IMG/VR virus record: IMGVR_UViG_3300027984_000001
Length of the DNA stretch: 64,000 nucleotides
From: a virus
Reading direction: 5' to 3' (one strand)
The position numbers and the translations under genes are program-made. The notes beneath the pieces are model-generated. The model was not told where the DNA came from and made no database searches. It saw only the letters and a program-made list of their open reading frames with translations. Below are positions 12,962 to 63,579 of the stretch, piece by piece (positions within the stretch are counted from its first letter, which is position 1; each line of letters begins with the position of its first letter).

Positions 12962-13123
12962 TTATTCATTACTGACCGCCCGCCTTTTTCTTGTTTTTAC
13001 TAGCTCTGGTTTTACAACTTCATTATTCACATTGTTTTCTATTTCTGGTTCTTTAATCGGCGGTTGAATATCCTCTTTTTTAACAGCACGTTGTAACGCT
13101 TTATCCCATATTAATTGTGGCAA
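12962..13123 (-). CDS. small basic hypothetical protein (53 aa)
   Basis: TTG start 8 nt after AAGGAGG, which overlaps the capsid stop. Followed by stem-loop 12937-12954. Confidence 0.4.
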   Translation of the reverse strand: MPQLIWDKALQRAVKKEDIQPPIKEPEIENNVNNEVVKPELVKTRKRRAVSNE

Positions 13124-13137
13124 TTATATTGCCCTCC

Positions 13138-14081
13138 TTATACAGTCCCGTTACCATTACCGTTCCCATTACCCGCGCTTACATCAATGCCTGTAATTGA
13201 ACCATGCATAAATGACGGGCCATGATCAAGGCCAATCTGCCCAAATAGCATCTCTCTTTCACTTGCGCCAATTTTAGCAAGCGGCTCGGTGAAAAGAATG
13301 CCTTTACCGGGAACCTCCTGAAACACCGGGGCGCAATAGGATACATCCACAACTGCCAACGCATCCGGCGGCATAAAGCGATTCCAGACAATGCCCAAAC
13401 GCCCAAAATCAAACTCTATTTCCTGAATATTCAAACCACCAACATTACGAGTAGGCGGCAATGCAAAGCCCACAACCAAGTTATAAATTTCGGTTATACG
13501 CTGTTTTAAATACGCGCCGACCATCATGACCGGATTCTGAAACATAGCCCCGCCATCGGCCATTTCCCTGAAAAGAGTATTCAGCATATTTTTGTCGAGC
13601 GGTGCGCCCGCCGCATCAATATGCGTTCCGCCGGGCAGTTGTGTAGCTTCAATTATGCCGCGTGTCCTGTTTGCTACAGCCGCGCTTGACGCTCTCTGGA
13701 ATGTACCCGCAATAAACGAATGTTCTACATCACGTGCAACTTTAATAAGTTTCTGCTGTAACTGCCAATCAAACTCATTCGGCGGATTAGCCGCTTGATT
13801 AGCAATGTTTACACCGCTCATAAGGCCCATGTTCGATAGCTTAACATAAGTTAAATCTATTGCTTCTTGATGGATCTGCACTACATTCGTTACTTGCTCA
13901 CGCGTAATGTGTGAAGGCGGCGGGCTTATAATAGACGCTGTTTCAGAAATATTAGGCTGTTCAGCGGGCGGATGCGCATACAACTGCGCCACAACGAACT
14001 CCCAAGCGCGGGTAATCATCCCGCCGGTCAATCCGCCAATCATTGATAAAAACGGAGTATTTACTGGATCTGCCGTAAATA
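13138..14081 (-). CDS. major capsid protein, exon 2
   Basis: Contains the TPFLSMIGGLTGG capsid motif. The frame is restored by splicing to exon 1. The ORF-track start (TTG 14085) has no SD. Confidence 0.8.
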
Positions 14082-14391
14082 CCAAAATATTAAAATGGGT
14101 ACACTACTCCCACTCCGCTAATAACTTAGCGTCTTTATTTTTCAATAAAGTGTAGACTATATTATTATCCCATTAGGATTCCTGCGCTGTCCCAGTGATT
14201 TTAGGGCATCTTAGTCGTTGAACCTTCCACTTTTCGCGGCTTGGCGGCTGATTATCCAATATTATTAGTTTTTAGCATTCACGCATAAGCTTATTTCATC
14301 TTTACGTTTTAGCCTAATAATCTCTAAGGATTTCCCAGCAATTCACAGGATTATTCGATACGCGTTTCCGCGTAAAGGAACAATTTCGGTT
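14082..14391 (-). mobile_element. group I self-splicing intron (ORF-less, 310 nt) in the major capsid gene
   Basis: Core elements P AAUUGCUGGGAAA, Q AAUCAGCC, R GUUCAACGACUAAGA and S AUAGUCUAC are present. Also P7 GACUA/UAGUC, two GAAA hairpins, a U.G 5' splice site and a terminal G at 14082. Confidence 0.8.
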
Positions 14392-14449
14392 ATTCTCCGC
14401 TATAATTCGGCAGATTCCAAGTTGTGCCTGTTCCGGCGATTAATGCCAT
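14392..14449 (-). CDS. major capsid protein, exon 1 (19 codons + 1 nt)
   Basis: ATG 14449 follows an AAGAGG SD and encodes MALIAGTGTTWNLPNYSGE. Ends in GAAU, which pairs with the intron guide sequence. Confidence 0.7.
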
Positions 14450-14469
14450 ATACATAAACCTCTTTTATA

Positions 14470-15162
14470 TTAAATTTTATTTAATAATGCAAATTTACCA
14501 TAATATTGAATTGCGGCATTATTATAAGCCATTGCCGCATCAACCTCGTTGTCAAAACTACCTAAATAATGCAACAGATTATTATATCTTATATTTGCAC
14601 ACCATTGACGTTGATTTTTATGGTACGATACACCTTTGTAAATACTTAACTTTTTATTAGCTGTTTTCCTTTGATTCATAATATTTTGATGAAATGTAGC
14701 AATTCTTAAATTCGATTTTCTGTTATTTGCGCCATCTCCATCAATATGATCAACAACCATATTCGAAGGGCATTGCATAATCAAATGATGCAATTTAAAT
14801 CTTTTGGTTCCACCTCCACCGCATTTTACATAGCCATCATCTACTTGCCAAAATCTATGACCTAGTAAATGAACATCCTCTTTATCCATATAAAATACTG
14901 CATTAGGTTGAACGTTTACATTTATTACCTTTACCACATCATTTAAATCAATAATAATCATCGGACATTTAATACTGCCGCATTTCCACTCATTTGATTT
15001 TTTATTTTTTATAATAATGCCATTCTCAAACTGTATATCAAAATCTTTTGCTGTTCTATATTCTATCACCTTGGCCATTAAACCATTATTCATACGTCTA
15101 ATTTCGCCAGTTTTATCAATACGCTGATTATTTTTTGCCCACTCGCGCCCTATATTAATCAT
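14470..15162 (-). CDS. free-standing HNH homing endonuclease with AP2 DNA-binding domain
   Basis: HNH_3-type motif (DHIDGDGANNRKSNLR...HQN) plus a C-terminal AP2-like YKGVSYHKNQRQWCANIRY...AAMAYN. Lies between the scaffold and capsid genes. Confidence 0.8.
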   Translation of the reverse strand: MINIGREWAKNNQRIDKTGEIRRMNNGLMAKVIEYRTAKDFDIQFENGIIIKNKKSNEWKCGSIKCPMIIIDLNDVVKVINVNVQPNAVFYMDKEDVHLLGHRFWQVDDGYVKCGGGGTKRFKLHHLIMQCPSNMVVDHIDGDGANNRKSNLRIATFHQNIMNQRKTANKKLSIYKGVSYHKNQRQWCANIRYNNLLHYLGSFDNEVDAAMAYNNAAIQYYGKFALLNKI

Positions 15163-15279
15163 CCCCTAGATTAACCCTCAATCATAATCATGGGGGGAGC
15201 GGCCGAGGATTGCCGCCATTCGTCCCATCGAACTATCCCATTTATAAATTATGCCAATAATGGCGCAATTTATCGTTTT

Positions 15280-15939
15280 TTAATTTACCACAACGCCCTT
15301 GGAAAAAGCTTCCCTCTTAATTCTCAATAAATCGGCAGTAGTCTTTCCTGCCTTTTTAGCGGCGTCATATTGCGCCTGATAATTAACTTCTCCGGAGGGT
15401 AATCGTGTCTCTGAGGGCTTTTGTTTCAATCTTTTTTCCAGCATTTCTGTTGCAAGCTTATCCACAACACCCGGCTTATGATACTCATACTCCGAAAACA
15501 TATCAATAATGCTTTGTATGTTTTCGGCTGTTACTTTCTCATAATCTACAAGACTTGCGAATGTTTTGGGGATCTGCTTTTCCACAAACGCATCTTCAAC
15601 CGTGCGCCGTAAACTGTCGGCGCGTTGTCTGCGCTCGTATTGCTCTTCCAATGACTTCTTTTGTCTTAATAATTCCTGTATTTGCTCATCTTTGTTCATT
15701 GCTTTAAATCTAGCTTCTTCGCTAATTTGCTGATCCAGCAAAATGCGTTGACGTTCAGCTTCTTTCTTCCGCGCCGTTTCCGTCGCTTGGGAAATTCGCT
15801 TATCAATGAATTTTTGCAATTCTGAATCTGTCTTAATCAATTCCTCGTAGTTTAACATCCTACTAGTAATTGGCTCTGGTTCTATATTATTCTTGTCAAC
15901 TTCTAATTGTTCGTTGTTGACAATAGGCTCATCAGCCAT
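15280..15939 (-). CDS. capsid scaffolding protein
   Basis: Acidic coiled-coil protein (DUF4355-like). ATG 15939 follows an AAGGAG SD. Upstream of the capsid gene. Confidence 0.7.
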   Translation of the reverse strand: MADEPIVNNEQLEVDKNNIEPEPITSRMLNYEELIKTDSELQKFIDKRISQATETARKKEAERQRILLDQQISEEARFKAMNKDEQIQELLRQKKSLEEQYERRQRADSLRRTVEDAFVEKQIPKTFASLVDYEKVTAENIQSIIDMFSEYEYHKPGVVDKLATEMLEKRLKQKPSETRLPSGEVNYQAQYDAAKKAGKTTADLLRIKREAFSKGVVVN

Positions 15940-16010
15940 TGATTGTCTCCTTTTGCCCTTGTCGTATTCAACCGACAAGTGCATATTATTTTATATGACC
16001 CGCAAGGGTA

Positions 16011-17246
16011 TCATGCATTTAAAACTTTTATTTCAAACTTCAAATCATTTAAAAACTGATTAATTAAGTCCAATGTCATATCATTACGTATAACTACACG
16101 TTGCAATACAATATTGGATAAATTATCCGGCATTGCATATGCTGGAATCATCCAGCCTTTTAATGACATTCTATCACTTAAATTAAATAATGTCCAGTTT
16201 TTTTTCTCTTGTAATGTCCATGTAACAATTGGTATATCAATCCGACCCGCCCATAATTGGAATACTCCTATTTTCAAGATTTCATCCATAAGATAATAGG
16301 CTATTCTCATAGACATTTCATGAATAGCTTTTATACCATCAAACCCATAGCGTATAAATACCCAATATTGCAATAAAACTTGCGCACCGGGTCTTGTAAA
16401 ATTCAATGTGTTTGTTGGCATATGCCCTCCAAGATAATCCACGTAATGAATTAAACTTTTAGGGAAATAACTTCTATGCCGCCAAACTACCCAACCTATG
16501 CCCGGATACACTAATCCGTATTTATGGCCTGAGGTATTAATTGAGACAACACGTTTAATTCTGAAATCCCATCCAAAATTAGATTGCAGAAACGGCGCAA
16601 TCATCCCACCGCTTGCCGCGTCAACATGGATGGGAATATCAATATTCTGCTGTTCACTCATATCATTTAGCACTTGATTAACGCTTACAATGTCATCATA
16701 TTGCCCGGTATAAGTTATTCCAAGTGTAACCACAACACCAATAGTATTGTCATCAACCAATGACAATATACTATAACCATCCAACACTTTATGATGTTGT
16801 GATATTGGGGCGTACCTTGGTTCTACGTCAAAATAATTACAAAACTTTTTCCAGCACACATGTGCCGTTGTTGACATTACAAGATTAGGTTTACTTTTGC
16901 CGGTCAAACCTTCACAACGGCGTTTCATTGCCAAACCTGCCATTATACAGGCTTCGGACGAACCCACAGTAGAAAAACCTATTGCATTATCAACATTCTT
17001 ACAATGCCATAAATCGGCTATTATTTTCCAACATCCGTTTTCAATAGCTGTTGTTTGTGGATTTTCCGACTTATCAATTAGGTTTTTCCAATAGTATTTA
17101 GCATACAATTTGTTTGCGTACTCTTCCATTTCAGCCGTTATGAATGTTTCTATATTCTTTTGTGGATCTGCATCCTGCTTTAAACGTTCAAGTATTATTT
17201 GATATGCCTTTTCTGGTAACATAGGCTCTTTGGGCAATATATCCAT
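16011..17246 (-). CDS. gad: glutamate decarboxylase (PLP-dependent, GadB-like)
   Basis: Colinear with E. coli GadB motifs: ADLWH, GSSEAC, HVDAASGG, the PLP-lysine motif SGHKYGLVYPGIGWVVWR, and VDYLGG..NFTRP. Confidence 0.85.
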   Translation of the reverse strand: MDILPKEPMLPEKAYQIILERLKQDADPQKNIETFITAEMEEYANKLYAKYYWKNLIDKSENPQTTAIENGCWKIIADLWHCKNVDNAIGFSTVGSSEACIMAGLAMKRRCEGLTGKSKPNLVMSTTAHVCWKKFCNYFDVEPRYAPISQHHKVLDGYSILSLVDDNTIGVVVTLGITYTGQYDDIVSVNQVLNDMSEQQNIDIPIHVDAASGGMIAPFLQSNFGWDFRIKRVVSINTSGHKYGLVYPGIGWVVWRHRSYFPKSLIHYVDYLGGHMPTNTLNFTRPGAQVLLQYWVFIRYGFDGIKAIHEMSMRIAYYLMDEILKIGVFQLWAGRIDIPIVTWTLQEKKNWTLFNLSDRMSLKGWMIPAYAMPDNLSNIVLQRVVIRNDMTLDLINQFLNDLKFEIKVLNA

Positions 17247-22189: not shown

Positions 22190-23041
22190 TCACCTCTTTT
22201 TCACAGATTCATCCAATATCATAGGGACGCAATTATCCCATCTTATATGATGATGCAATCTTTTATGATTATCTCCCATCTCTCTAATGGTAACACATGA
22301 CGGGGCCATCATTACAGTATAAAACGACTTTAGATACGTACCAGTATCCAAATACACATCGGACATTCCACCTTTATTTTTTTGTGTAGTAGTCTGCACT
22401 ATATTACATCTTGATGTAGACAATAATAACTTTCCCCGCATACCCAACGTAACATAAGTATTAACGTCCTCATTTATTCTACCAACAAACCAAAATCTAT
22501 TAGATGTTTTGCAAAAAAAAGTATTCATAGTTTTGCGCATAATGCCTTTAGCGTAATTCTTGCTATCAGCCCCACCGATAAAATCTCCACCTTGGGCAAA
22601 TGCGACCGTTAATGCATTTGTATCCTCCAGTAAATTTATCATACGCTGAAATACTTGATCCGCATTTTTAACCTGAATAGTCATTAGTTTATTGCCTTTT
22701 ATATATCTATATTCCAAATCGCAATAATCATCATCAAGTTCTAAAAAATATTTTAAATTAAGATTTTCTGCAATGTCAAAACAAGCATTTCTCGCATAAA
22801 CAATAGTACGCATATCGTCAAATGTATCTGCTGTATCGAACCTATTTGATATATTTAGCTTGTCAAACGTAATAACAGACTTACCATATTTTTTATAATA
22901 CTCATTCGCTGATTCATCTTTATTATCGATGATAATATATATTTTTCCAGTATATCCCACTGTTTTAAGGGTCGATAAAGTTTTGACGTTATTTGCCCTG
23001 CCGTGTGATAGAATAAAACAAGCAAAATCATTGTTCATCAA
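22190..23041 (-). CDS. GT-A-like (DxD) putative glycosyltransferase, specificity unknown
   Basis: 283 aa. Rossmann-like N-terminus FILSHGR...IYIIIDNKDE and an LELDDDY motif. No TM segment. Confidence 0.35.
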   Translation of the reverse strand: MMNNDFACFILSHGRANNVKTLSTLKTVGYTGKIYIIIDNKDESANEYYKKYGKSVITFDKLNISNRFDTADTFDDMRTIVYARNACFDIAENLNLKYFLELDDDYCDLEYRYIKGNKLMTIQVKNADQVFQRMINLLEDTNALTVAFAQGGDFIGGADSKNYAKGIMRKTMNTFFCKTSNRFWFVGRINEDVNTYVTLGMRGKLLLSTSRCNIVQTTTQKNKGGMSDVYLDTGTYLKSFYTVMMAPSCVTIREMGDNHKRLHHHIRWDNCVPMILDESVKKR

Positions 23042-23744
23042 GTAAATCCTCTAATGATTGACTAATAAAGTCGTGTAACTTAACAAAACCGTATTCAATA
23101 GCCTTATCATAATCAATGATAACAAGCCCTGATTTTTCCATCAACTCTTGAACTTCTATGCTTGCATGAACATAAAATTCTGCTATTTTCTTGTAATTAA
23201 AAACATAATGCCTGTATGCCGCCTTAATTAAAAAATCTTTAATATATTCATCTATTGAACTATTAGTTATTTCATTGATTAACTCATCGGCCTTTTCAGT
23301 ATCCAGTAAGGAATCAATATCCGGGGATTCGCCATTCAATTCATAAACCGGAGTAATAACTTTATCAGTATAAGTCGAATCATCTAGGTTATCATCATTC
23401 AATGAGAAGCCAAAACGCTCCATATTAAAATCAAACAAATCCCCTAATTCAACATCCAATAAATTCATATCCCATTCCGACAATTCCGACGTCTTATTAT
23501 CCACAAGCCTATAGGCTTTTATTTGTTGTTCCGTCAAATCATCAATAATTACACAAGGTATAGTTTGTATTTTTAACTTTTGAGCGGCCTTTACTCTTGT
23601 ATGTCCCGCAACTATTGTATTGTTTTTATCAATAATTACAGGGTTCCTGAACCCAAACTCTTTTATACTGTTAACTACAGCATTAACGGCAGAATCATTT
23701 TTGCGCGGATTATGTTCGTACATTTTAAGACTTTCAATAGACAT
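23028..23744 (-). CDS. ParB-like nuclease domain protein
   Basis: ParB N-terminal motifs (NPR, IVAGHTRVKAA). 238 aa. Confidence 0.7.
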   Translation of the reverse strand: MSIESLKMYEHNPRKNDSAVNAVVNSIKEFGFRNPVIIDKNNTIVAGHTRVKAAQKLKIQTIPCVIIDDLTEQQIKAYRLVDNKTSELSEWDMNLLDVELGDLFDFNMERFGFSLNDDNLDDSTYTDKVITPVYELNGESPDIDSLLDTEKADELINEITNSSIDEYIKDFLIKAAYRHYVFNYKKIAEFYVHASIEVQELMEKSGLVIIDYDKAIEYGFVKLHDFISQSLEDLLDEQ

Positions 23745-23761
23745 ATTATATATTTGAATAA

Positions 23762-25051
23762 TTACACCCCCTTAATCAACTCTGCTTTTTGTTTGGTAAA
23801 TTCTTCCCACCTATCAACTATTAAATCACAATAACCGCAATCTAACTCCATAATATAACAAGCCCTGTTTAATTGTTCACACGCTATCAATGTACTGCCT
23901 GACCCTCCAAACGGTTCAATAACAATATCATTAATATCAGTCATTGCTTTGACATATTCTGCCGGGAATCCAATAGGGAAAACTGCCGGATGATCTTCGC
24001 GAATAGGGCCTTTTTCGCTATATAAAGATAATACACTTGTCATTTTTTTTAACGGATTGCTTGTATCCCCAACTGCACTATATTTTGTCGACCCATCTTT
24101 TTGTCGTCTTGTATTAACAGTTCTTAAATCACGATCCTTCTTGTCCCATGTGCAATTAATATCATAGTATTTAGTCCCAAAAACAAAAACCCATTCATGA
24201 CAAATCGGAAAAAATGCATGTTGCAAACCTATACTTCCAGAATTAATCTGATTCCAGATATTCCACGCCAATAGCTTATAACCGCATTGCTTAGCTTTTT
24301 CAATGTATGCATCCCAATATTGTACGATCTCGTACTCTTTACGTTGAATACCTAAATTAATACATTGATAATCGGTATACTTTTTATAGACATCAATAAA
24401 ATTAATTAAATTGTCTATAGAAATATCCTTATCCCCTCCATAAGTCCGCATATCGGAATATGGCGGGGACGTAAATAAGATGCGCCCTTTTTGTTTATTC
24501 ATTAGCAAATCGACATCATTTACATTTGTTGAATCCCCGCATACTAGCCTATGTTTACCCAACTTATAAACATTGCCTCGTTTAGTCTTAGGTATAATAG
24601 GCGGTTCTTTGTCATACTCATCCTCAGTAATTTCAATAGTATTAATATCGTCCTGTTGAATAGCAGAAATTGAATTTATATCAAACCCAAAATCAGCCAT
24701 ATTCATATCGAATATATTGCTTAATTCATCTTTTAATATATCAATATCCCATTCAGATTCATTAGTTTTATTATCCGCAAGCCGCAATGCATTCATTTCT
24801 TCTTGCGTCAAACCTTCTGCAATAACACATGGTACAGTATTCATTTTTAGCCGCTTCGCGGCTAGTAGTCTGGCGTGGCCAATAATGATATCATTATTAT
24901 TTGAGATTACCAGTGGTTGTTGCCATCCAAATGATTTTATACTATTGGAAACCTTGGTTATTTGTTCATCAGAATGTTTTTTTGCATTCTTGGGATAAGG
25001 TTTTAAATCTTTGATAGACTTTTCAATTACTTGAATAATATCACACCCCAC
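23762..25051 (-). CDS. ParB-domain / DNA methyltransferase fusion (N6A or N4C, beta class)
   Basis: ParB N-domain (IIGHARLLAAKRL) plus motif IV TSPPY and motif I EPFGGSGST. GTG start. Confidence 0.8.
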   Translation of the reverse strand: MGCDIIQVIEKSIKDLKPYPKNAKKHSDEQITKVSNSIKSFGWQQPLVISNNNDIIIGHARLLAAKRLKMNTVPCVIAEGLTQEEMNALRLADNKTNESEWDIDILKDELSNIFDMNMADFGFDINSISAIQQDDINTIEITEDEYDKEPPIIPKTKRGNVYKLGKHRLVCGDSTNVNDVDLLMNKQKGRILFTSPPYSDMRTYGGDKDISIDNLINFIDVYKKYTDYQCINLGIQRKEYEIVQYWDAYIEKAKQCGYKLLAWNIWNQINSGSIGLQHAFFPICHEWVFVFGTKYYDINCTWDKKDRDLRTVNTRRQKDGSTKYSAVGDTSNPLKKMTSVLSLYSEKGPIREDHPAVFPIGFPAEYVKAMTDINDIVIEPFGGSGSTLIACEQLNRACYIMELDCGYCDLIVDRWEEFTKQKAELIKGV

Positions 25052-29398: not shown

Positions 29399-30433
29399 TT
29401 ATTTTTTTACTTTATACTTCGCGAACAAATCATCTGTTGAGATTTTTTTGACCGGCGGGCGCTCGCTTAGATATTCCACAACCTTTATTTCGGTTTTAGG
29501 CACAATCTTTTTCTGCTCACGCGCCTTTTGTCTCTTTTCGTTTACATCATTGACATATTTGCTCATTTCTGATATTCTGTTTGTTGGGGCGCTTAAACCT
29601 GTTAAAAGGCATAACGTCTGACTAGGATTGTCTGCCGTAAAGGTTATTAACGGCTCCCCCACAATTTCTTTTATCTTATTTACGTCCATTGCGGACGACG
29701 CCGCCAACAAGATGTATTCAATCAGTTGGTCGTTTTCCATTGGCACATACAAACCGCTCTTAACGGCATTAATCAATTTATCAATGGCGCTTTGTTCTTT
29801 TGGCAATCTGGCAATAACGCTATAGCCGGATGCCGATAAAACACGCTTCAAATCAGCGTTGTCTATAACTGCGCCGATATCTTTCAAACCCGGCAATGTC
29901 AATACTGCGTCAAGCTGATTAACAAACTCTGTATTTATCTTTTCTTTATCCCATGCATTATTATCCAAGGCAAATATGGCCGCCAAACCCTCAATGTCAT
30001 TCAATTCATTAATGCATTCAACGGCATTTGCGTGGGCTTGCAACGATTCCTGATACGCGGGGAAAACCACAATCGCGCATATTCTTTTATCTGGATGTGC
30101 CTGTATCAAATTTTCAATCAATAACGGGGATGAGCCTGACCCCGTGCCGCCACCAGCTGAAAACACAACAAAAATGAACTGGGTTGTCAATTTATCGCTT
30201 ATAAAATCATTTATTTTTTCCCATTGCCCAGTTGTCAGGCGCTTGGAAACATTGCGATCGCAACCGCTTCCCTCCGCACCGGTAACATGATACATATACT
30301 TCGTTTTTCCAAGGGTATCAAGACCTCCCAAGCTTGTGTCAATATACATGGCAGTATAACCCGCGTTTTCGAAAAGTCTTGCAATATTCCCCCCGGCTTG
30401 GCCAACCCCCAAAAAGGAAACATCATTCTTCAT
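29399..30433 (-). CDS. tubZ: tubulin/FtsZ-family GTPase (TubZ/PhuZ-like)
   Basis: GVGQAGGN N-terminal motif and the exact tubulin signature GGGTGSG. Basic C-terminal tail. 344 aa. Confidence 0.8.
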   Translation of the reverse strand: MKNDVSFLGVGQAGGNIARLFENAGYTAMYIDTSLGGLDTLGKTKYMYHVTGAEGSGCDRNVSKRLTTGQWEKINDFISDKLTTQFIFVVFSAGGGTGSGSSPLLIENLIQAHPDKRICAIVVFPAYQESLQAHANAVECINELNDIEGLAAIFALDNNAWDKEKINTEFVNQLDAVLTLPGLKDIGAVIDNADLKRVLSASGYSVIARLPKEQSAIDKLINAVKSGLYVPMENDQLIEYILLAASSAMDVNKIKEIVGEPLITFTADNPSQTLCLLTGLSAPTNRISEMSKYVNDVNEKRQKAREQKKIVPKTEIKVVEYLSERPPVKKISTDDLFAKYKVKK

Positions 30434-45559: not shown

Positions 45560-45673
45560 ATGGCTTATTTGTTAATCTCAATTAAACTCTTTATACAGCA
45601 TACTAGGCTGTATCCCCTTATTAGCTTGGTATTTACCCATGGAATTATATTCTACATAATCCCCCTCAATTAA
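45560..45673 (+). CDS. possible 37-aa hydrophobic peptide antisense to the dcd 3' end
   Basis: AAGGA SD 9 nt before the ATG. MAYLLISIKLFIQHTRLYPLISLVFTHGIIFYIIPLN. Could equally be a shadow ORF. Confidence 0.25.
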   Translation: MAYLLISIKLFIQHTRLYPLISLVFTHGIIFYIIPLN

Positions 45674-46099
45674 GTGATAATATATCTGACAGATTTCAAC
45701 GTAAGGATATATCCTTATTGGCTGTACACAATGTATTTCTAACGTCCTATATCCCTTAAACCCCACATCCCCGAATCCTGCCGTTATGTGTATAAACAAA
45801 CCTAGTCTGCCTATTGAAGATCTACCCTCTAACATAGGCACTAGACCATTTGTTTCTGTATATTCTAAAGTTCTTCCTAGGTATAATGTTCCGGGAAAAA
45901 GCTCCAATCCTTCGTTAGGTATGGTTATCAATTTTGTTTTATGTTGTTTCTTTATATCTAGTATAGGTTCATCATAGACCATCAACTCATTGTGAAGTTT
46001 TAAATTGTAGCTGTTTGGGTTCAAACAATTTTTGTCAAATGGATCTATCACAATTTGCTTATCCAATCTTTTTTCTATTTCCAACCCAGATAATATCAC
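45578..46099 (-). CDS. dcd: dCTP deaminase
   Basis: MILSGLEI..., NPNSYNL, EGRSSIGRLGLFIH motifs typical of Dcd. GTG start. Confidence 0.8.
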   Translation of the reverse strand: MILSGLEIEKRLDKQIVIDPFDKNCLNPNSYNLKLHNELMVYDEPILDIKKQHKTKLITIPNEGLELFPGTLYLGRTLEYTETNGLVPMLEGRSSIGRLGLFIHITAGFGDVGFKGYRTLEIHCVQPIRIYPYVEICQIYYHLIEGDYVEYNSMGKYQANKGIQPSMLYKEFN

Positions 46100-51003: not shown

Positions 51004-51063
51004 TATGATACCTCCAATAATCGGGCGTCCATGCTTGTAACCGTCCTGCCGCATTACCAGCCA

Positions 51064-51273
51064 TTATGGCCGTAACTCTGCGCTTATTTCATTTTCGAAT
51101 ATTTCATATAATCTTTGGGTATTCCCATCGGCTATAAATTCATATTCATTGTCTCCGTAATTCGCAATTAAGCGATAACCCGTTTCTGTCTTATAGTCGA
51201 TAAAATACTCAACCCCGTCTATCGTTCCAAGTGCTTCAACAAAGAATCCAACTTCATTTACTTTTAATTTCAT
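51064..51273 (-). CDS. hypothetical protein
   Basis: 69 aa. TTGGAGG SD behind a promoter cassette. Confidence 0.55.
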   Translation of the reverse strand: MKLKVNEVGFFVEALGTIDGVEYFIDYKTETGYRLIANYGDNEYEFIADGNTQRLYEIFENEISAELRP

Positions 51274-58001: not shown

Positions 58002-58595
58002 TTACGCGAACATAGATTCCCTAATCTTTTTGACGGCCCTTAGCCTTATTTGACCGACATTAGATTTTGAGCATCCAAGTATAGCGGCGATTTCCTTTTC
58101 GCTCTTATCCTGAACATACATCATATTGATAACGTATTTATATTTTTCGCTTAAACATTCAATGGCCTTTGCTAACAAAATCTTGTCAATCCATTGGTCT
58201 GCGTTCTGTTTCGGATCTTCCGTTGATTCCAGTATGGATTGATACTCTCCAGATTCTGCGCCTATAGTATACTCGCTAACTTCATTCCCCCAGCGTTGTT
58301 CCTTGCGCAAATAAAGGATAATTTCATTTGTAATAAGCCGCGTTGCATAGGTTGAAAAATGGACGCTCTTTTCAAACTTGAACGTATTTATTGCATTTAA
58401 TAAGCCTACATTACCGATTTGAACTAAATCTTCAAAGGTTGCGCTAATGCCGTTATATTCATATTTATGCGCAATCTTAGCAACCAACCTTTGATTGTGT
58501 TCAATGAATAAATCGCGAGCTTTTAAATCGCCCTTTTGCGCTTTATAAAGCAACGCGTTGTTTTCTTCCAATGATAGAACCTCCATGTATTTCAT
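58002..58595 (-). CDS. sigma-70 family RNA polymerase sigma factor (sporulation-sigma-like size)
   Basis: Region 2 (DLVQIGNVGLLNAINTF...YATRLITNEI) and region 4 (EKEIAAILGCSKSNVGQIRLRAVKKIR). Confidence 0.8.
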   Translation of the reverse strand: MKYMEVLSLEENNALLYKAQKGDLKARDLFIEHNQRLVAKIAHKYEYNGISATFEDLVQIGNVGLLNAINTFKFEKSVHFSTYATRLITNEIILYLRKEQRWGNEVSEYTIGAESGEYQSILESTEDPKQNADQWIDKILLAKAIECLSEKYKYVINMMYVQDKSEKEIAAILGCSKSNVGQIRLRAVKKIRESMFA

Positions 58596-58620
58596 GTTTT
58601 CCCCTCCCACGGGATAATAT

Positions 58621-62707: not shown

Positions 62708-62992
62708 GCCTTCATGATAAAACTTGGGGTCTTTATCCTCTTCATATTTCTTTTTTAAACGTTCATATTCTTTTCGCTCTTTATCATCGCCGTCAGATTC
62801 TTTTTCTTTGCCTTCCATTTCTTGTTTTTGGAAATCCTTTAAACCTTTAACATCATCATCATCAAGTAATTCCTGCACCTTTTTCAGTTTGGGCTTGGAT
62901 AGCGTTGATAATCCTATAATAATTGTCCCTAACCCTAAAACTGCTAATGGCTTGATAAGCTTTTCTAACATTTCATCTTGTTCTTTACCCAT
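62702..62992 (-). CDS. small membrane protein with Lys/Glu/Asp-rich tail
   Basis: Start moved to MGKEQ (TAATG overlap, GGAGG SD). Confidence 0.5.
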   Translation of the reverse strand: MGKEQDEMLEKLIKPLAVLGLGTIIIGLSTLSKPKLKKVQELLDDDDVKGLKDFQKQEMEGKEKESDGDDKERKEYERLKKKYEEDKDPKFYHEGN

Positions 62993-63579
62993 TATTTGAC
63001 CTCCAATACTTTCATTCTTTTCCCAACTACATCCCAACAAATAGACTTTATAAAATTCAAAACATACAAATTCTGATTAGCGGGATAATCTATCATATAA
63101 CTATGCTCATAACAATCCATAACTATTAATGGATACATCCCCACAATCAAACCGCTATCATGTGCATCCAGTAGAATATTTTGTAATGCGCAAGTCTTTA
63201 ATTCATATGCCGCTATGCACCATCCACGGGCCGCTTGCCCTGTAGATAAAAAATCATTACACCAATTTTCATAACTTCCAAAACAATCCTGCGCTAGTTT
63301 GACGTATGCCTTATCTGGTTCATGCTTATCACGACAAGCGTTGCGGAAAAATGATTCATGCAATAACACACTACTCAAGTTATAACTTAATTCTTTCTTT
63401 AATCCCCTATAATGTGAGTAATTTTTATTAGCTTTTTCTGGCTTGCTATCCTGAGATAATTCGCTTAATATCTCATTTGCTTTATCAACATATCCTACAT
63501 ATAACTTATAATGAGCCTGAAACGCTCTATCGCTAACGAACGAAACATTATGACTATATGTAATGGCCTTTACCATCAT
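62992..63579 (-). CDS. sod: Fe/Mn superoxide dismutase-like protein
   Basis: Colinear with SodA: AHYKLYVGYV, LLHESFF, GWCIAAY, MDCYEHSYMIDY. All four metal ligands (H, H, D, H) are present. Confidence 0.7.
   Translation of the reverse strand: MMVKAITYSHNVSFVSDRAFQAHYKLYVGYVDKANEILSELSQDSKPEKANKNYSHYRGLKKELSYNLSSVLLHESFFRNACRDKHEPDKAYVKLAQDCFGSYENWCNDFLSTGQAARGWCIAAYELKTCALQNILLDAHDSGLIVGMYPLIVMDCYEHSYMIDYPANQNLYVLNFIKSICWDVVGKRMKVLEVK

What the first reader, a model, noticed from the sequence alone, without database searches (positions are those of the whole stretch)
14082..14391. Self-splicing group I intron splits the major capsid protein gene; splice sites can be defined from sequence
**The split gene.** The capsid ORF in the track (13138..14085) starts at a TTG with no SD and lacks an N-terminus. 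364 nt upstream, a 19-codon ORF with a good SD (ATG 14449) reads MALIAGTGTTWNLPNYSGE-stop.

**Group I core.** The 310 nt in between carry, on the minus strand, the four conserved group I elements:
- P: AAUUGCUGGGAAA (14331-14343)
- Q: AAUCAGCC (14246-14253)
- R: GUUCAACGACUAAGA (14209-14223)
- S: AUAGUCUAC (14152-14160)

**Other pairings.**
- P4 pairing GCUG/CAGC and P7 pairing GACUA/UAGUC are possible.
- Two hairpins are GAAA-capped (14359-14374 and 14133-14150).
- A guide sequence GUUC (14378-14381) pairs with the exon-1 end GAAU (14392-14395), giving the canonical U.G at the 5' splice site.
- The intron ends in G at 14082.
- A 4-bp P10 is possible (AAAU 14383-14386 with AUUU 14077-14080).

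**Result of splicing.** Excising 14082..14391 restores the frame exactly, giving ...NLPNYSGE-L-FTADPVNTPFLSMIGGLTGG..., a 333-aa capsid protein. The intron has no internal ORF.
Basis: partly seen in the sequence, partly recalled or inferred. Interest (0 to 1): 0.8.

Follow-up and report, generated by a model that had tools for sequence, protein, structure and literature searches.

The report
Group I intron splitting phage capsid gene
The major capsid gene of this uncultivated phage is interrupted, 19 codons in, by a 310-base self-splicing-type (group I) intron, with a stand-alone homing-endonuclease gene inserted just upstream; this is a well-known kind of selfish element in phages, so the case is clean but ordinary.

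Summary
The finding is confirmed to the nucleotide. Rfam's group I intron model hits window 14402..14133 (minus strand) at 68.6 bits (threshold 50, E 2.7e-15), and it is the only hit above threshold in the 64 kb.

Removing 14082..14391 joins a 19-codon exon to the "TTG-start" ORF. The product is a 333-aa SU10-type major capsid protein. Its junction reads NYSGE-L-FTADP, exactly as in dozens of uninterrupted homologues. No other junction gives the invariant Leu.

The fold is supported by compensatory changes in related phage introns (24 of 49 pairs).

New here: an intact HNH/AP2 endonuclease gene (14470..15162) lies 78 nt upstream of the intron site. Both it and the intron are absent from the closest relative and from the 80 nearest capsid loci in IMG/VR. 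This matches the known "collaborative homing" layout of a free-standing endonuclease plus an ORF-less intron, but cleavage specificity is untested.

Splicing itself is inferred, not shown. Verdict: a new member of a known kind, of modest interest.

The parts
14392..14449 (-). Major capsid protein exon 1: 19 codons plus the first base of the Leu20 codon. Starts at ATG 14449, with the Shine-Dalgarno sequence AAAGAGG ending at 14459.
   Evidence: The N-terminus MALIAGTGTTWNLPNYSGE matches intron-less homologues.
14082..14391 (-). Group I intron, 310 nt, with no endonuclease ORF.
   Evidence: RF00028 at 68.6 bits, E 2.7e-15. Covariation with related phage introns. Absent from the intron-less relative L001.
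13138..14081 (-). Major capsid protein exon 2: the last two bases of the Leu20 codon through the stop codon.
   Evidence: 74% nucleotide identity to the L001 capsid gene from 14079 onward.
14377..14398 (-). P1. The exon-1 end GG(A)GAAU plus intron AA pairs with the internal guide sequence UUGUUCC (14383..14377). The U14392.G14381 wobble pair marks the 5' splice site. The UAA at 14392..14390 stops translation of unspliced RNA right at the junction.
   Evidence: Rfam alignment; sequence.
14359..14374 (-). P2 hairpin with a GAAA tetraloop.
14344..14350 (-). P3 5' strand, UCCUGUG. Pairs with 14180..14186.
14222..14339 (-). P4-P6 domain: P4 14339..14335/14251..14247; P5 14331..14328/14257..14254; P5a 14321..14314/14268..14261; P5b about 14307..14281; P6 14245..14243/14224..14222; P6a 14239..14236/14230..14227.
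   Evidence: Compensatory changes in P5, P5a, P5b, P6 and P6a; P4 is kept but never covaries in this set.
14212..14216 (-). P7 5' strand, GACUA, inside the R element. Pairs with UAGUC at 14155..14159 in the S element, forming a pseudoknot with P3.
   Evidence: Invariant in the four aligned introns.
14188..14208 (-). Single short hairpin between P7 and P3', in the P7.1/P7.2 position typical of subgroup IA.
   Evidence: Three pairs with compensatory change (helix 9).
14180..14186 (-). P3 3' strand, CGCAGGA.
14167..14179 (-). P8 hairpin.
14155..14159 (-). P7 3' strand, UAGUC.
14133..14150 (-). P9 hairpin with a GAAA tetraloop.
   Evidence: Five of seven pairs covary.
14093..14131 (-). Peripheral hairpins P9.1 (14131..14116) and P9.2 (14115..14093).
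   Evidence: Minimum-free-energy fold only; not tested by covariation.
14082..14082 (-). Terminal G (omega-G) at the 3' splice site. U14084-G14083 can pair with C14152-A14151 to form a 2-bp P9.0.
   Evidence: Sequence. This is the only 3' site that restores the frame and the Leu codon.
14077..14080 (-). Exon-2 bases AUUU, which can form a 4-bp P10 with AAAU at 14383..14386.
   Evidence: Sequence. Not above chance.
14470..15162 (-). Free-standing HNH endonuclease gene, 230 aa, with an HNH_3 catalytic domain and a C-terminal AP2-like DNA-binding domain. Its stop codon is 20 nt before the capsid ATG and 78 nt before the intron insertion site.
   Evidence: Pfam HNH_3 32.5 bits (cut-off 24.8) and AP2 24.7 bits (below the cut-off of 33.3). 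phrog_99 HNH endonuclease, E 1.6e-33. GC 30.6% against 38.4% for the window. Absent from L001 and from the 80 nearest capsid loci in IMG/VR.
15163..15279 (-). 117-nt spacer between the scaffold stop and the HNH start. Part of the DNA that is inserted relative to L001.
   Evidence: Sub-threshold int-alpA RNA match at 15175..15243.
15280..15984 (-). Head scaffolding protein gene. It is the left-hand neighbour, and in relatives it directly abuts the capsid gene.
   Evidence: phrog_172, E 4.7e-13. 49% identical to the L001 scaffold protein. In L001 the scaffold and capsid genes are 24 nt apart.

Best explanation
A 310-nt group I intron (14082..14391, minus strand) sits inside codon 20 (Leu) of the phage's major capsid protein gene.

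**How it works (inferred from the established group I mechanism).**
1. The late transcript folds into the conserved core, P1 to P9.
2. The exon-1 end GAAU pairs with the guide sequence GUUC, giving a U.G pair at the 5' splice site.
3. An external guanosine bound in P7 attacks after U14392.
4. The freed exon-1 3'-OH then attacks after the terminal G14082.
5. This joins U14392 to U14081 and creates UUA (Leu), giving a continuous 333-aa SU10-type capsid ORF.
6. On unspliced RNA, the UAA formed at the junction stops ribosomes before they can enter and unfold the ribozyme.

**Status of the claims.**
- Shown here: the ribozyme sequence and structure, the unique junction, and the identity of the protein.
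- Inferred: that splicing actually occurs.

**A second, less certain part (about 45% likely).** The intact HNH/AP2 endonuclease gene inserted 78 nt upstream, between the scaffold and capsid genes, may be the intron's mobility partner. It would cut intron-less capsid alleles at or near the conserved insertion site. Repair from the donor genome would then copy both the endonuclease gene and the intron, and the intron would protect its own genome by disrupting the target. This is known as collaborative or trans homing.
For: **Intron identity**
- RF00028 at 68.6 bits, E 2.7e-15, over the full-length model.
- All core elements are at the stated coordinates.

**Fold**
- The consensus fold with three related phage introns recovers P4 to P9.
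- 24 of 49 pairs carry compensatory changes and 95.9% of cells are paired.
- 0 of 500 shuffles reach the observed values, and slid partners give at most 7 such pairs.

**Junction and protein**
- The spliced ORF covers SU10_MCP profile positions 2-291 of 292 at 200.6 bits.
- Uninterrupted homologues read NYSGELFTADP across the junction.
- Intron-less relative L001 aligns colinearly with both exons.

**A living phage rather than an artefact**
- The same sequence is 100% identical in two independent assemblies.

**Relatives**
- The closest intron relatives are in other phages. They include the annotated split capsid gene of Bacillus phage SP-15, at 79.5% identity over P3-P7.

**For the endonuclease partnership**
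- The gene is intact.
- It is the only HNH of its kind found in the window, and the intron is the only intron, and they lie 78 nt apart.
- Both are missing from the nearest relative and from the 80 nearest capsid loci in IMG/VR.
- The gene's GC content is anomalously low.
- The insertion site lies in a block (nt 34-70) that ranks among the most conserved DNA stretches of the gene.
- The layout matches published collaborative-homing cases (PMC3984707; PMC10448857).
Against: **Against the intron reading**
- There is no RNA evidence of splicing.
- P10 is only 4 A-U pairs.
- P4 has one U x C mismatch at its outer end.
- Only one short hairpin stands where IA2 introns have P7.1 and P7.2.

**Against the partnership**
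- No cleavage data exist.
- Only one lineage carries the pair, so co-occurrence is a single observation.
- The nearest HNH homologue (45% identical) sits next to an unrelated head gene with no intron.
- Homing endonuclease genes cluster near essential phage genes anyway (PMC10448857).
- No intron-less allele of this same phage was found to show ongoing mobility.
Confidence: 0.92

Rival explanations
1. The HNH gene and the intron are independent selfish elements that happen to be neighbours. The HNH would be a free-standing homing endonuclease spreading by intron-less homing into the scaffold-capsid spacer. The intron would be an old, now immobile passenger.
For: - Homing endonuclease genes cluster beside essential phage genes regardless of introns (PMC10448857).
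- The closest HNH homologue is free-standing next to a different head gene.
- No closer copy of the intron was found anywhere, which argues against a recent spread.
Against: - This is the only such HNH and the only intron found in 64 kb, and they lie 78 nt apart.
- Both are absent together from the nearest relative.
- The intron insertion site lies well within the reach of co-conversion from any cut near the HNH gene.
Confidence: 0.4
2. Endonuclease turnover. The intron once carried its own endonuclease ORF in a loop and later lost it. A new free-standing endonuclease then arrived next door, so the pair is a historical by-product and not a cooperating unit.
For: - This alternative is proposed explicitly for such layouts in PMC10448857.
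- Several related introns do carry internal or adjacent endonuclease ORFs: SP-15, Vibrio 1.232.O, Enterococcus EF1 and L102.
Against: - No remnant of an ORF is visible in any loop of the 310-nt intron.
- The idea is not distinguishable from collaborative homing by sequence alone.
Confidence: 0.15
3. The intron is a decayed, non-splicing relic. The capsid protein would be made from the TTG at 14085 or the ATG at 14043, without the first 19 or more residues, or as two separate polypeptides.
For: - Public gene callers annotate exactly such truncated products, of 293 and 301 aa.
- No RNA data exist.
Against: - The ribozyme core is complete and scores above the Rfam threshold.
- Its helices keep pairing with compensatory changes.
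- The missing N-terminal residues W11, L13, P14, N15, G18 and L20 are invariant in homologues.
- There is no Shine-Dalgarno sequence before the TTG.
- Exon 1 keeps a good Shine-Dalgarno sequence, the frame and a conserved sequence.
Confidence: 0.04
4. Assembly artefact: a chimeric contig has placed an unrelated intron-like fragment inside the capsid gene.
For: The window comes from a metagenome assembly.
Against: - The sequence is identical over 6.2 kb in an ENA assembly (67.9-kb contig) and a separate Logan assembly of another run.
- The insertion is exact to the base and preserves the frame.
- The guide sequence is complementary to the flanking exon.
Confidence: 0.01

Closest known systems
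Phage group I introns of the IA/IA2 type in essential genes (for example T4 td/nrdB, Twort orf142, SPO1 DNA polymerase); here specifically the intron in the major capsid gene of Bacillus phage SP-15 (KT624200)
   Same: - Rfam Intron_gpI core.
- 79.5% nucleotide identity over P3-P7 to the SP-15 intron, which also splits a major capsid gene annotated as a two-piece join.
- The same extended P5 arm, GAAA tetraloops and R/S elements as the introns of Streptococcus phage Str-PAP-1, Staphylococcus phage DW2 and Vibrio phage 1.232.O.
- More than half of viral group I introns are reported to be IA2 (PMC11835236).
   Different: - A different capsid family: SU10-type here, T4 gp23-like in SP-15.
- A different insertion site.
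- No internal endonuclease ORF, whereas SP-15 has one.
- Only one short hairpin where IA2 has P7.1 and P7.2.
- No copy closer than about 80% identity was found in any collection searched.
Collaborative (trans) homing pairs: cyanophage S-PM2 psbA intron with F-CphI, T3/phiI DNA polymerase intron with a free-standing HNH, and the ICP1 terminase intron with an adjacent T5orf172 endonuclease gene
   Same: [quoted passage not shown]
- An intact free-standing endonuclease gene immediately beside the interrupted gene.
- As in ICP1, the endonuclease gene lies next to a very short N-terminal exon (PMC3984707, PMC10448857).
   Different: - The target gene is the capsid gene.
- The endonuclease is of the HNH_3/AP2 type.
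- The defining property, cleavage of the intron-less allele at the insertion site, has not been tested here.
SU10-type major capsid proteins (Pfam PF17236, also named DUF5309)
   Same: A full-length match at 200.6 bits. Thousands of homologues exist in phage and prophage contigs, and the annotated ones are major capsid proteins of Propionibacterium and Mycobacterium phages.
   Different: This is the only interrupted member among the roughly 100 nearest relatives examined.

Membership tests
Group I catalytic intron (Rfam RF00028) | Covariance-model score at or above the curated gathering score. | tested here: met
   68.6 bits against 50, E 2.7e-15, model positions 1-253 of 253.
Group I catalytic intron (Rfam RF00028) | Conserved core helices P3-P9, including the P4 (P/Q) and P7 (R/S) pairings and the P3/P7 pseudoknot. 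| tested here: met
   All helices were located. P4, P5, P5a, P5b, P6, P6a, P7, P8 and P9 are kept in four related introns, with 24 of 49 pairs showing compensatory changes; P4 and P7 themselves never vary, so they add no covariation. P3 is supported by the Rfam alignment and the fold only.
Group I catalytic intron (Rfam RF00028) | The 5' splice site follows a U that forms a U.G wobble pair with the internal guide sequence in P1. | tested here: met
   U14392.G14381 lies within a 6-7 bp P1 in the Rfam alignment. Most intron-less relatives have C at this base; the intron-bearing allele has T.
Group I catalytic intron (Rfam RF00028) | The intron ends in a G (omega-G), and exon ligation restores the host gene. 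| tested here: met
   G14082. Ligation gives a 333-aa ORF that reads ...SGELFTADP... as in uninterrupted homologues.
Group I catalytic intron (Rfam RF00028) | Guanosine-dependent self-splicing activity. | not testable with these tools
   This needs in-vitro transcription and splicing, or RNA reads across the junction.
Subgroup IA2 | Two extra hairpins, P7.1 and P7.2, between P7 and the 3' strand of P3 (from my own knowledge of the Michel-Westhof classification). | tested here: inconclusive
   Only 25 nt with one 3-5 bp hairpin lie there (14188..14208). Relative DW2 has room for two hairpins. The subtype covariance models were not available.
Collaborative (trans) homing pair | An intron without its own endonuclease ORF, plus an intact free-standing endonuclease gene beside the interrupted gene. 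| tested here: met
   The longest sense ORF in the intron is 28 aa. The HNH_3/AP2 ORF of 230 aa ends 78 nt from the insertion site.
Collaborative (trans) homing pair | [quoted passage not shown] | not testable with these tools
   No biochemical data. The only indirect support is that the insertion site lies in a highly conserved DNA block.
Collaborative (trans) homing pair | The endonuclease gene and the intron are present or absent together among related genomes. | tested here: inconclusive
   Both are absent in L001/L002 and in the 80 nearest capsid loci in IMG/VR, and both are present only in this phage. That is one lineage, so one observation.
SU10-type major capsid protein (PF17236) | A full-length match above Pfam's gathering score. 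| tested here: met
   200.6 bits against 24.1; residues 4-318 match profile positions 2-291 of 292, but only for the spliced product.
HNH homing endonuclease (HNH_3 with AP2-type DNA-binding domain) | An HNH_3 catalytic motif above the cut-off, plus a DNA-binding domain. | tested here: met
   HNH_3 at 32.5 bits against 24.8, with the motif VDHIDGDGANNRKSNL present. phrog_99 at 117.9 bits. AP2 at 24.7 bits is below its cut-off of 33.3, so the AP2 call is tentative. Homologues carry both PF13392 and PF00847.

The most novel reading that the evidence does not exclude
The HNH/AP2 endonuclease and the ORF-less intron form a working collaborative-homing unit that targets the conserved N-terminal-arm coding block (PNY-x-GELF) of SU10-type capsid genes. 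This would be an additional example of this proposed intermediate stage in the origin of mobile introns, here in a capsid gene. It could also act in phage-phage competition, by cutting the capsid gene of co-infecting intron-less relatives.
Probability: 0.4. Interest if true: 0.45.

Novelty: new member of a known kind. Interest (0 to 1): 0.3.

Why it matters
**Annotation.** Public gene calls for this phage's capsid protein are truncated, at 293 or 301 aa instead of 333. Recognising the intron corrects them. The case also shows how short upstream exons get lost in metagenomic phage annotation.

**Biology.** It adds a clean case of a group I intron in a capsid gene, with splice sites pinned to the base. 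It also offers a candidate endonuclease-plus-intron pair for testing the collaborative-homing model of how mobile introns arise. Neither point changes current understanding, because phage group I introns in essential genes, capsid genes included, and adjacent free-standing endonucleases are well documented.

Tried and rejected
- **Close DNA relatives in GenBank phages.** Megablast of 13000-15200 found none.
- **Other capsid genes with an intron at this site.** The 80 nearest IMG/VR loci and all homologues inspected are colinear, with no intron or HNH match. One of the two search patterns spans the junction and favours uninterrupted genes; the other does not.
- **A closer copy of the intron.** An IMG/VR pattern scan gave 6 loci at or below 77% identity. 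A JGI metagenome pattern scan gave 20 loci at or below 78% over the core. Nothing is closer than SP-15.
- **An intron-less allele of the same phage.** A search of metagenome contigs found none.
- **A shared genomic context for the HNH lineage.** The nearest homologues (45-46% identical) are free-standing in unrelated contexts, so there is no lineage-level link to capsid genes or introns.
- **Alternative splice junctions.** Splicing after GAA before GUA, or after GAAUA before A, was rejected because it gives Val without a 5' U, or a stop codon.
- **Formal subgroup assignment.** Not achieved, because no subtype models were on hand.
- **Spacer upstream of the HNH gene.** The int-alpA-like match is below threshold and its fold is not unusual (z = -1.1). 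It is not claimed as a feature.
- **Literature search.** I looked for an experimentally spliced intron in a phage capsid gene and found none in the papers opened. The SP-15 GenBank annotation is the concrete precedent.

Full report
**Observation**

On the minus strand the window reads: scaffold gene (15280..15984), a 230-aa ORF (14470..15162), a short ORF starting at ATG 14449 and ending ...NLPNYSGE-UAA, 310 nt without a meaningful ORF, and then a 315-codon ORF starting at TTG 14085.

A scan of the whole 64-kb window, both strands, against all 4227 Rfam families gives a single hit above a gathering score. It is RF00028 (group I catalytic intron) at 14402..14133 on the minus strand: 68.6 bits against a threshold of 50, E 2.7e-15, covering the full model. 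A more permissive scan finds no second intron. The intron's predicted folding energy is 3.9 standard deviations below that of shuffled sequences.

**Splice sites**

The Rfam alignment builds P1 from the exon-1 end GG(A)GAAU plus two intron bases, paired with UUGUUCC. This puts the U.G wobble at U14392/G14381. The intron ends in G14082. Joining U14392 to U14081 makes UUA (Leu) and a continuous 333-codon ORF.

- **Pfam.** The spliced product matches SU10_MCP from profile position 2 to 291 of 292 at 200.6 bits.
- **Homologues.** A search of 5.8 billion proteins returns 3354 homologues. Of these I inspected 25 uninterrupted sequences (P0001 is this phage's own truncated gene call). All read ...W-N-L-P-N-Y/F-x-G-E/D-L-F-T-A... 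straight through the junction, including P0002 (83% identical and also 333 aa).
- **Invariant residues.** In an 18-sequence alignment W11, L13, P14, N15, G18, L20, F21, T22 and A23 are invariant.
- **Alternatives.** Shifting the junction by one base either way gives Val without the required 5' U, or a stop codon. The junction is therefore fixed by sequence alone.
- **Intron-less relative.** L001 is a 51.9-kb JGI contig. Its DNA aligns with both exons and has nothing between them: GAG C|TT TTT in L001, GAA T|intron|TA TTT here.

**Structure**

The helices are:

- P1
- P2, with a GAAA loop
- P3
- P4, P5, P5a, P5b, P6 and P6a
- P7
- one short hairpin in the P7.1/P7.2 position
- P8
- P9, with a GAAA loop
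- P9.1 and P9.2

A 2-bp P9.0 and a 4-bp P10 are also possible.

BLAST of the intron against GenBank phages finds 201 records that match the P3-P7 core. The best is the intron in the split major capsid gene of Bacillus phage SP-15, at 79.5% over 146 nt. That gene is annotated as a two-piece join with an endonuclease ORF inside. Of the seven related loci scanned, five carry at least one Rfam group I hit above threshold; in three of them the hit coincides with the BLAST match to this intron, and SP-15 and BpSp gave no hit above threshold.

I aligned the window's intron with those of Vibrio phage 1.232.O, Streptococcus phage Str-PAP-1 and Staphylococcus phage DW2. RNAalifold recovers P4 through P9, and 24 of 49 pairs carry compensatory changes. 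Counting on that structure gives:

- 95.9% of cells paired, against 78% in shuffles.
- 0 of 500 shuffles reaching any of the measures.
- At most 7 covarying pairs when the 3' partners are slid by 1-3 columns.

The structure was derived from the same alignment, so this test is partly circular. The slid controls and the independent Rfam model agree with it.

The extra hairpin between P7 and P3', together with the affinity to phage introns, points to subgroup IA. IA2 proper has two hairpins there, so I leave the subtype open.

**Neighbourhood**

The 230-aa ORF directly upstream is an intact HNH endonuclease:

- Pfam HNH_3 at 32.5 bits, above its cut-off.
- An AP2-like C-terminal domain at 24.7 bits, below its cut-off.
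- phrog_99 "HNH endonuclease", E 1.6e-33.

In relative L001 the scaffold and capsid genes are 24 nt apart. In the window about 810 nt are inserted exactly between the scaffold stop and the capsid Shine-Dalgarno sequence: a 117-nt spacer plus the HNH ORF. The HNH ORF has 30.6% GC, which puts it in the lowest 1.1% of same-size windows.

None of the 80 nearest capsid loci in IMG/VR has either the HNH gene or the intron. No HNH paralogue and no other homing-endonuclease family turned up among the 34 window ORFs scanned. The intron insertion site lies in a DNA block (nt 34-70 of the coding sequence) that is among the ten most conserved 30-nt windows of the gene across 69 distinct relatives. The window centred on the site itself ranks 90 of 969.

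**Mechanism**

The best-supported reading is ordinary group I splicing that restores the capsid mRNA. The junction-spanning UAA halts ribosomes on unspliced RNA.

The layout is an ORF-less intron in a conserved essential gene with an intact free-standing endonuclease gene beside a very short first exon. This is the arrangement described as collaborative or trans homing for cyanophage S-PM2 psbA, for T3-like DNA polymerase genes and for the ICP1 terminase gene (PMC3984707; PMC10448857). I rate that partnership at roughly 40-45%. The defining property, cleavage at the insertion site, is untested, and only one lineage carries the pair. The closest HNH homologue sits beside a different head gene with no intron. 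The rival readings are independent neighbours and endonuclease turnover.

**Reality of the sequence**

Two independent assemblies are 100% identical to the window over 6.2 kb spanning the locus: the ENA ERZ27257338 contig of 67,875 bp and one from the Logan assembly of SRR6206236. An assembly artefact is therefore very unlikely. A capsid gene that could not be spliced would not persist.

**Novelty**

Group I introns in phage essential genes are abundant. One recent study reports thousands of them in gut jumbo phages and confirms part of them by metatranscriptome reads (PMC12880540). More than half of viral group I introns are reported to be IA2 (PMC11835236). A capsid-gene example is already annotated in SP-15.

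This is a new member of a known kind. It is notable mainly for how cleanly the splice sites can be fixed and for the candidate collaborative-homing partner. Interest 0.3.

Noticed in passing
window 16011..17246 (-): A 411-aa PLP-dependent decarboxylase (Pfam Pyridoxal_deC, 188.8 bits) is encoded inside the head-morphogenesis module, between the Mu-F-like gene and the scaffold gene. It holds the same position in the relative L001. This is an unusual place for a metabolic-type enzyme.
   Followed up: no
window 51021..51082 (-): A candidate twister (type P5) self-cleaving ribozyme: RF02684 at 36.5 bits, just under the gathering score of 37.6. E is 5.7e-4 for the whole window, the full model is covered, and the conserved GCAGAG / UAAUGCGGCA / CAAGC stretches are present.
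   Followed up: partly
window 15175..15243 (-): A sub-threshold match to the int-alpA RNA motif (RF02996, 28.8 bits against 35.8) in the 117-nt spacer just upstream of the HNH gene. That spacer is part of the DNA inserted relative to L001. The fold energy is not unusual, z = -1.1.
   Followed up: partly
window 22190..25051 (-) and 45578..46099 (-): A probable DNA-modification cluster. It comprises a TET-associated glycosyltransferase (TAGT, 124 bits), a ParB_N-domain protein (23028..23744), a ParB-N/DNA methylase fusion (23762..25051) and, further away, a dCTP-deaminase-like protein. This hints at hypermodified phage DNA.
   Followed up: no
window 29399..30433 (-), 58002..58610 (-), 62992..63579 (-): The phage encodes a TubZ-like tubulin, a sigma-70-family sigma factor and an Fe/Mn superoxide dismutase.
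   Followed up: no
P0001; L091 4144-5025; L092 4120-5025: Public gene calls for this phage's capsid protein are N-terminally truncated, at 301 and 293 aa starting at internal codons, because the intron was not recognised.
   Followed up: yes
L088 (Vibrio phage 1.232.O, MG592596) 1441-1711; L090 (ICP1, HQ641347) 560-2780: In Vibrio phage 1.232.O, an unannotated Rfam group I intron (83 bits) begins at the 3' end of the annotated capsid CDS and is followed by an HNH ORF. That capsid gene is therefore probably split and mis-annotated too. In ICP1, HNH ORF80 lies just upstream of a region (locus 1501-1626) that matches this intron's core in BLAST, followed by ORF79, a C-terminal gene fragment; Rfam's only hit in that locus is a separate, 5'-truncated intron at 1-284. 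This resembles the layout in the window.
   Followed up: partly
L089 (Enterococcus phage EF1, MF001358) 661-1233: Two group I intron hits (52 and 88 bits) lie within 600 nt, upstream of an annotated 'HNH homing endonuclease # Phage intron'. These may be tandem or nested introns.
   Followed up: no
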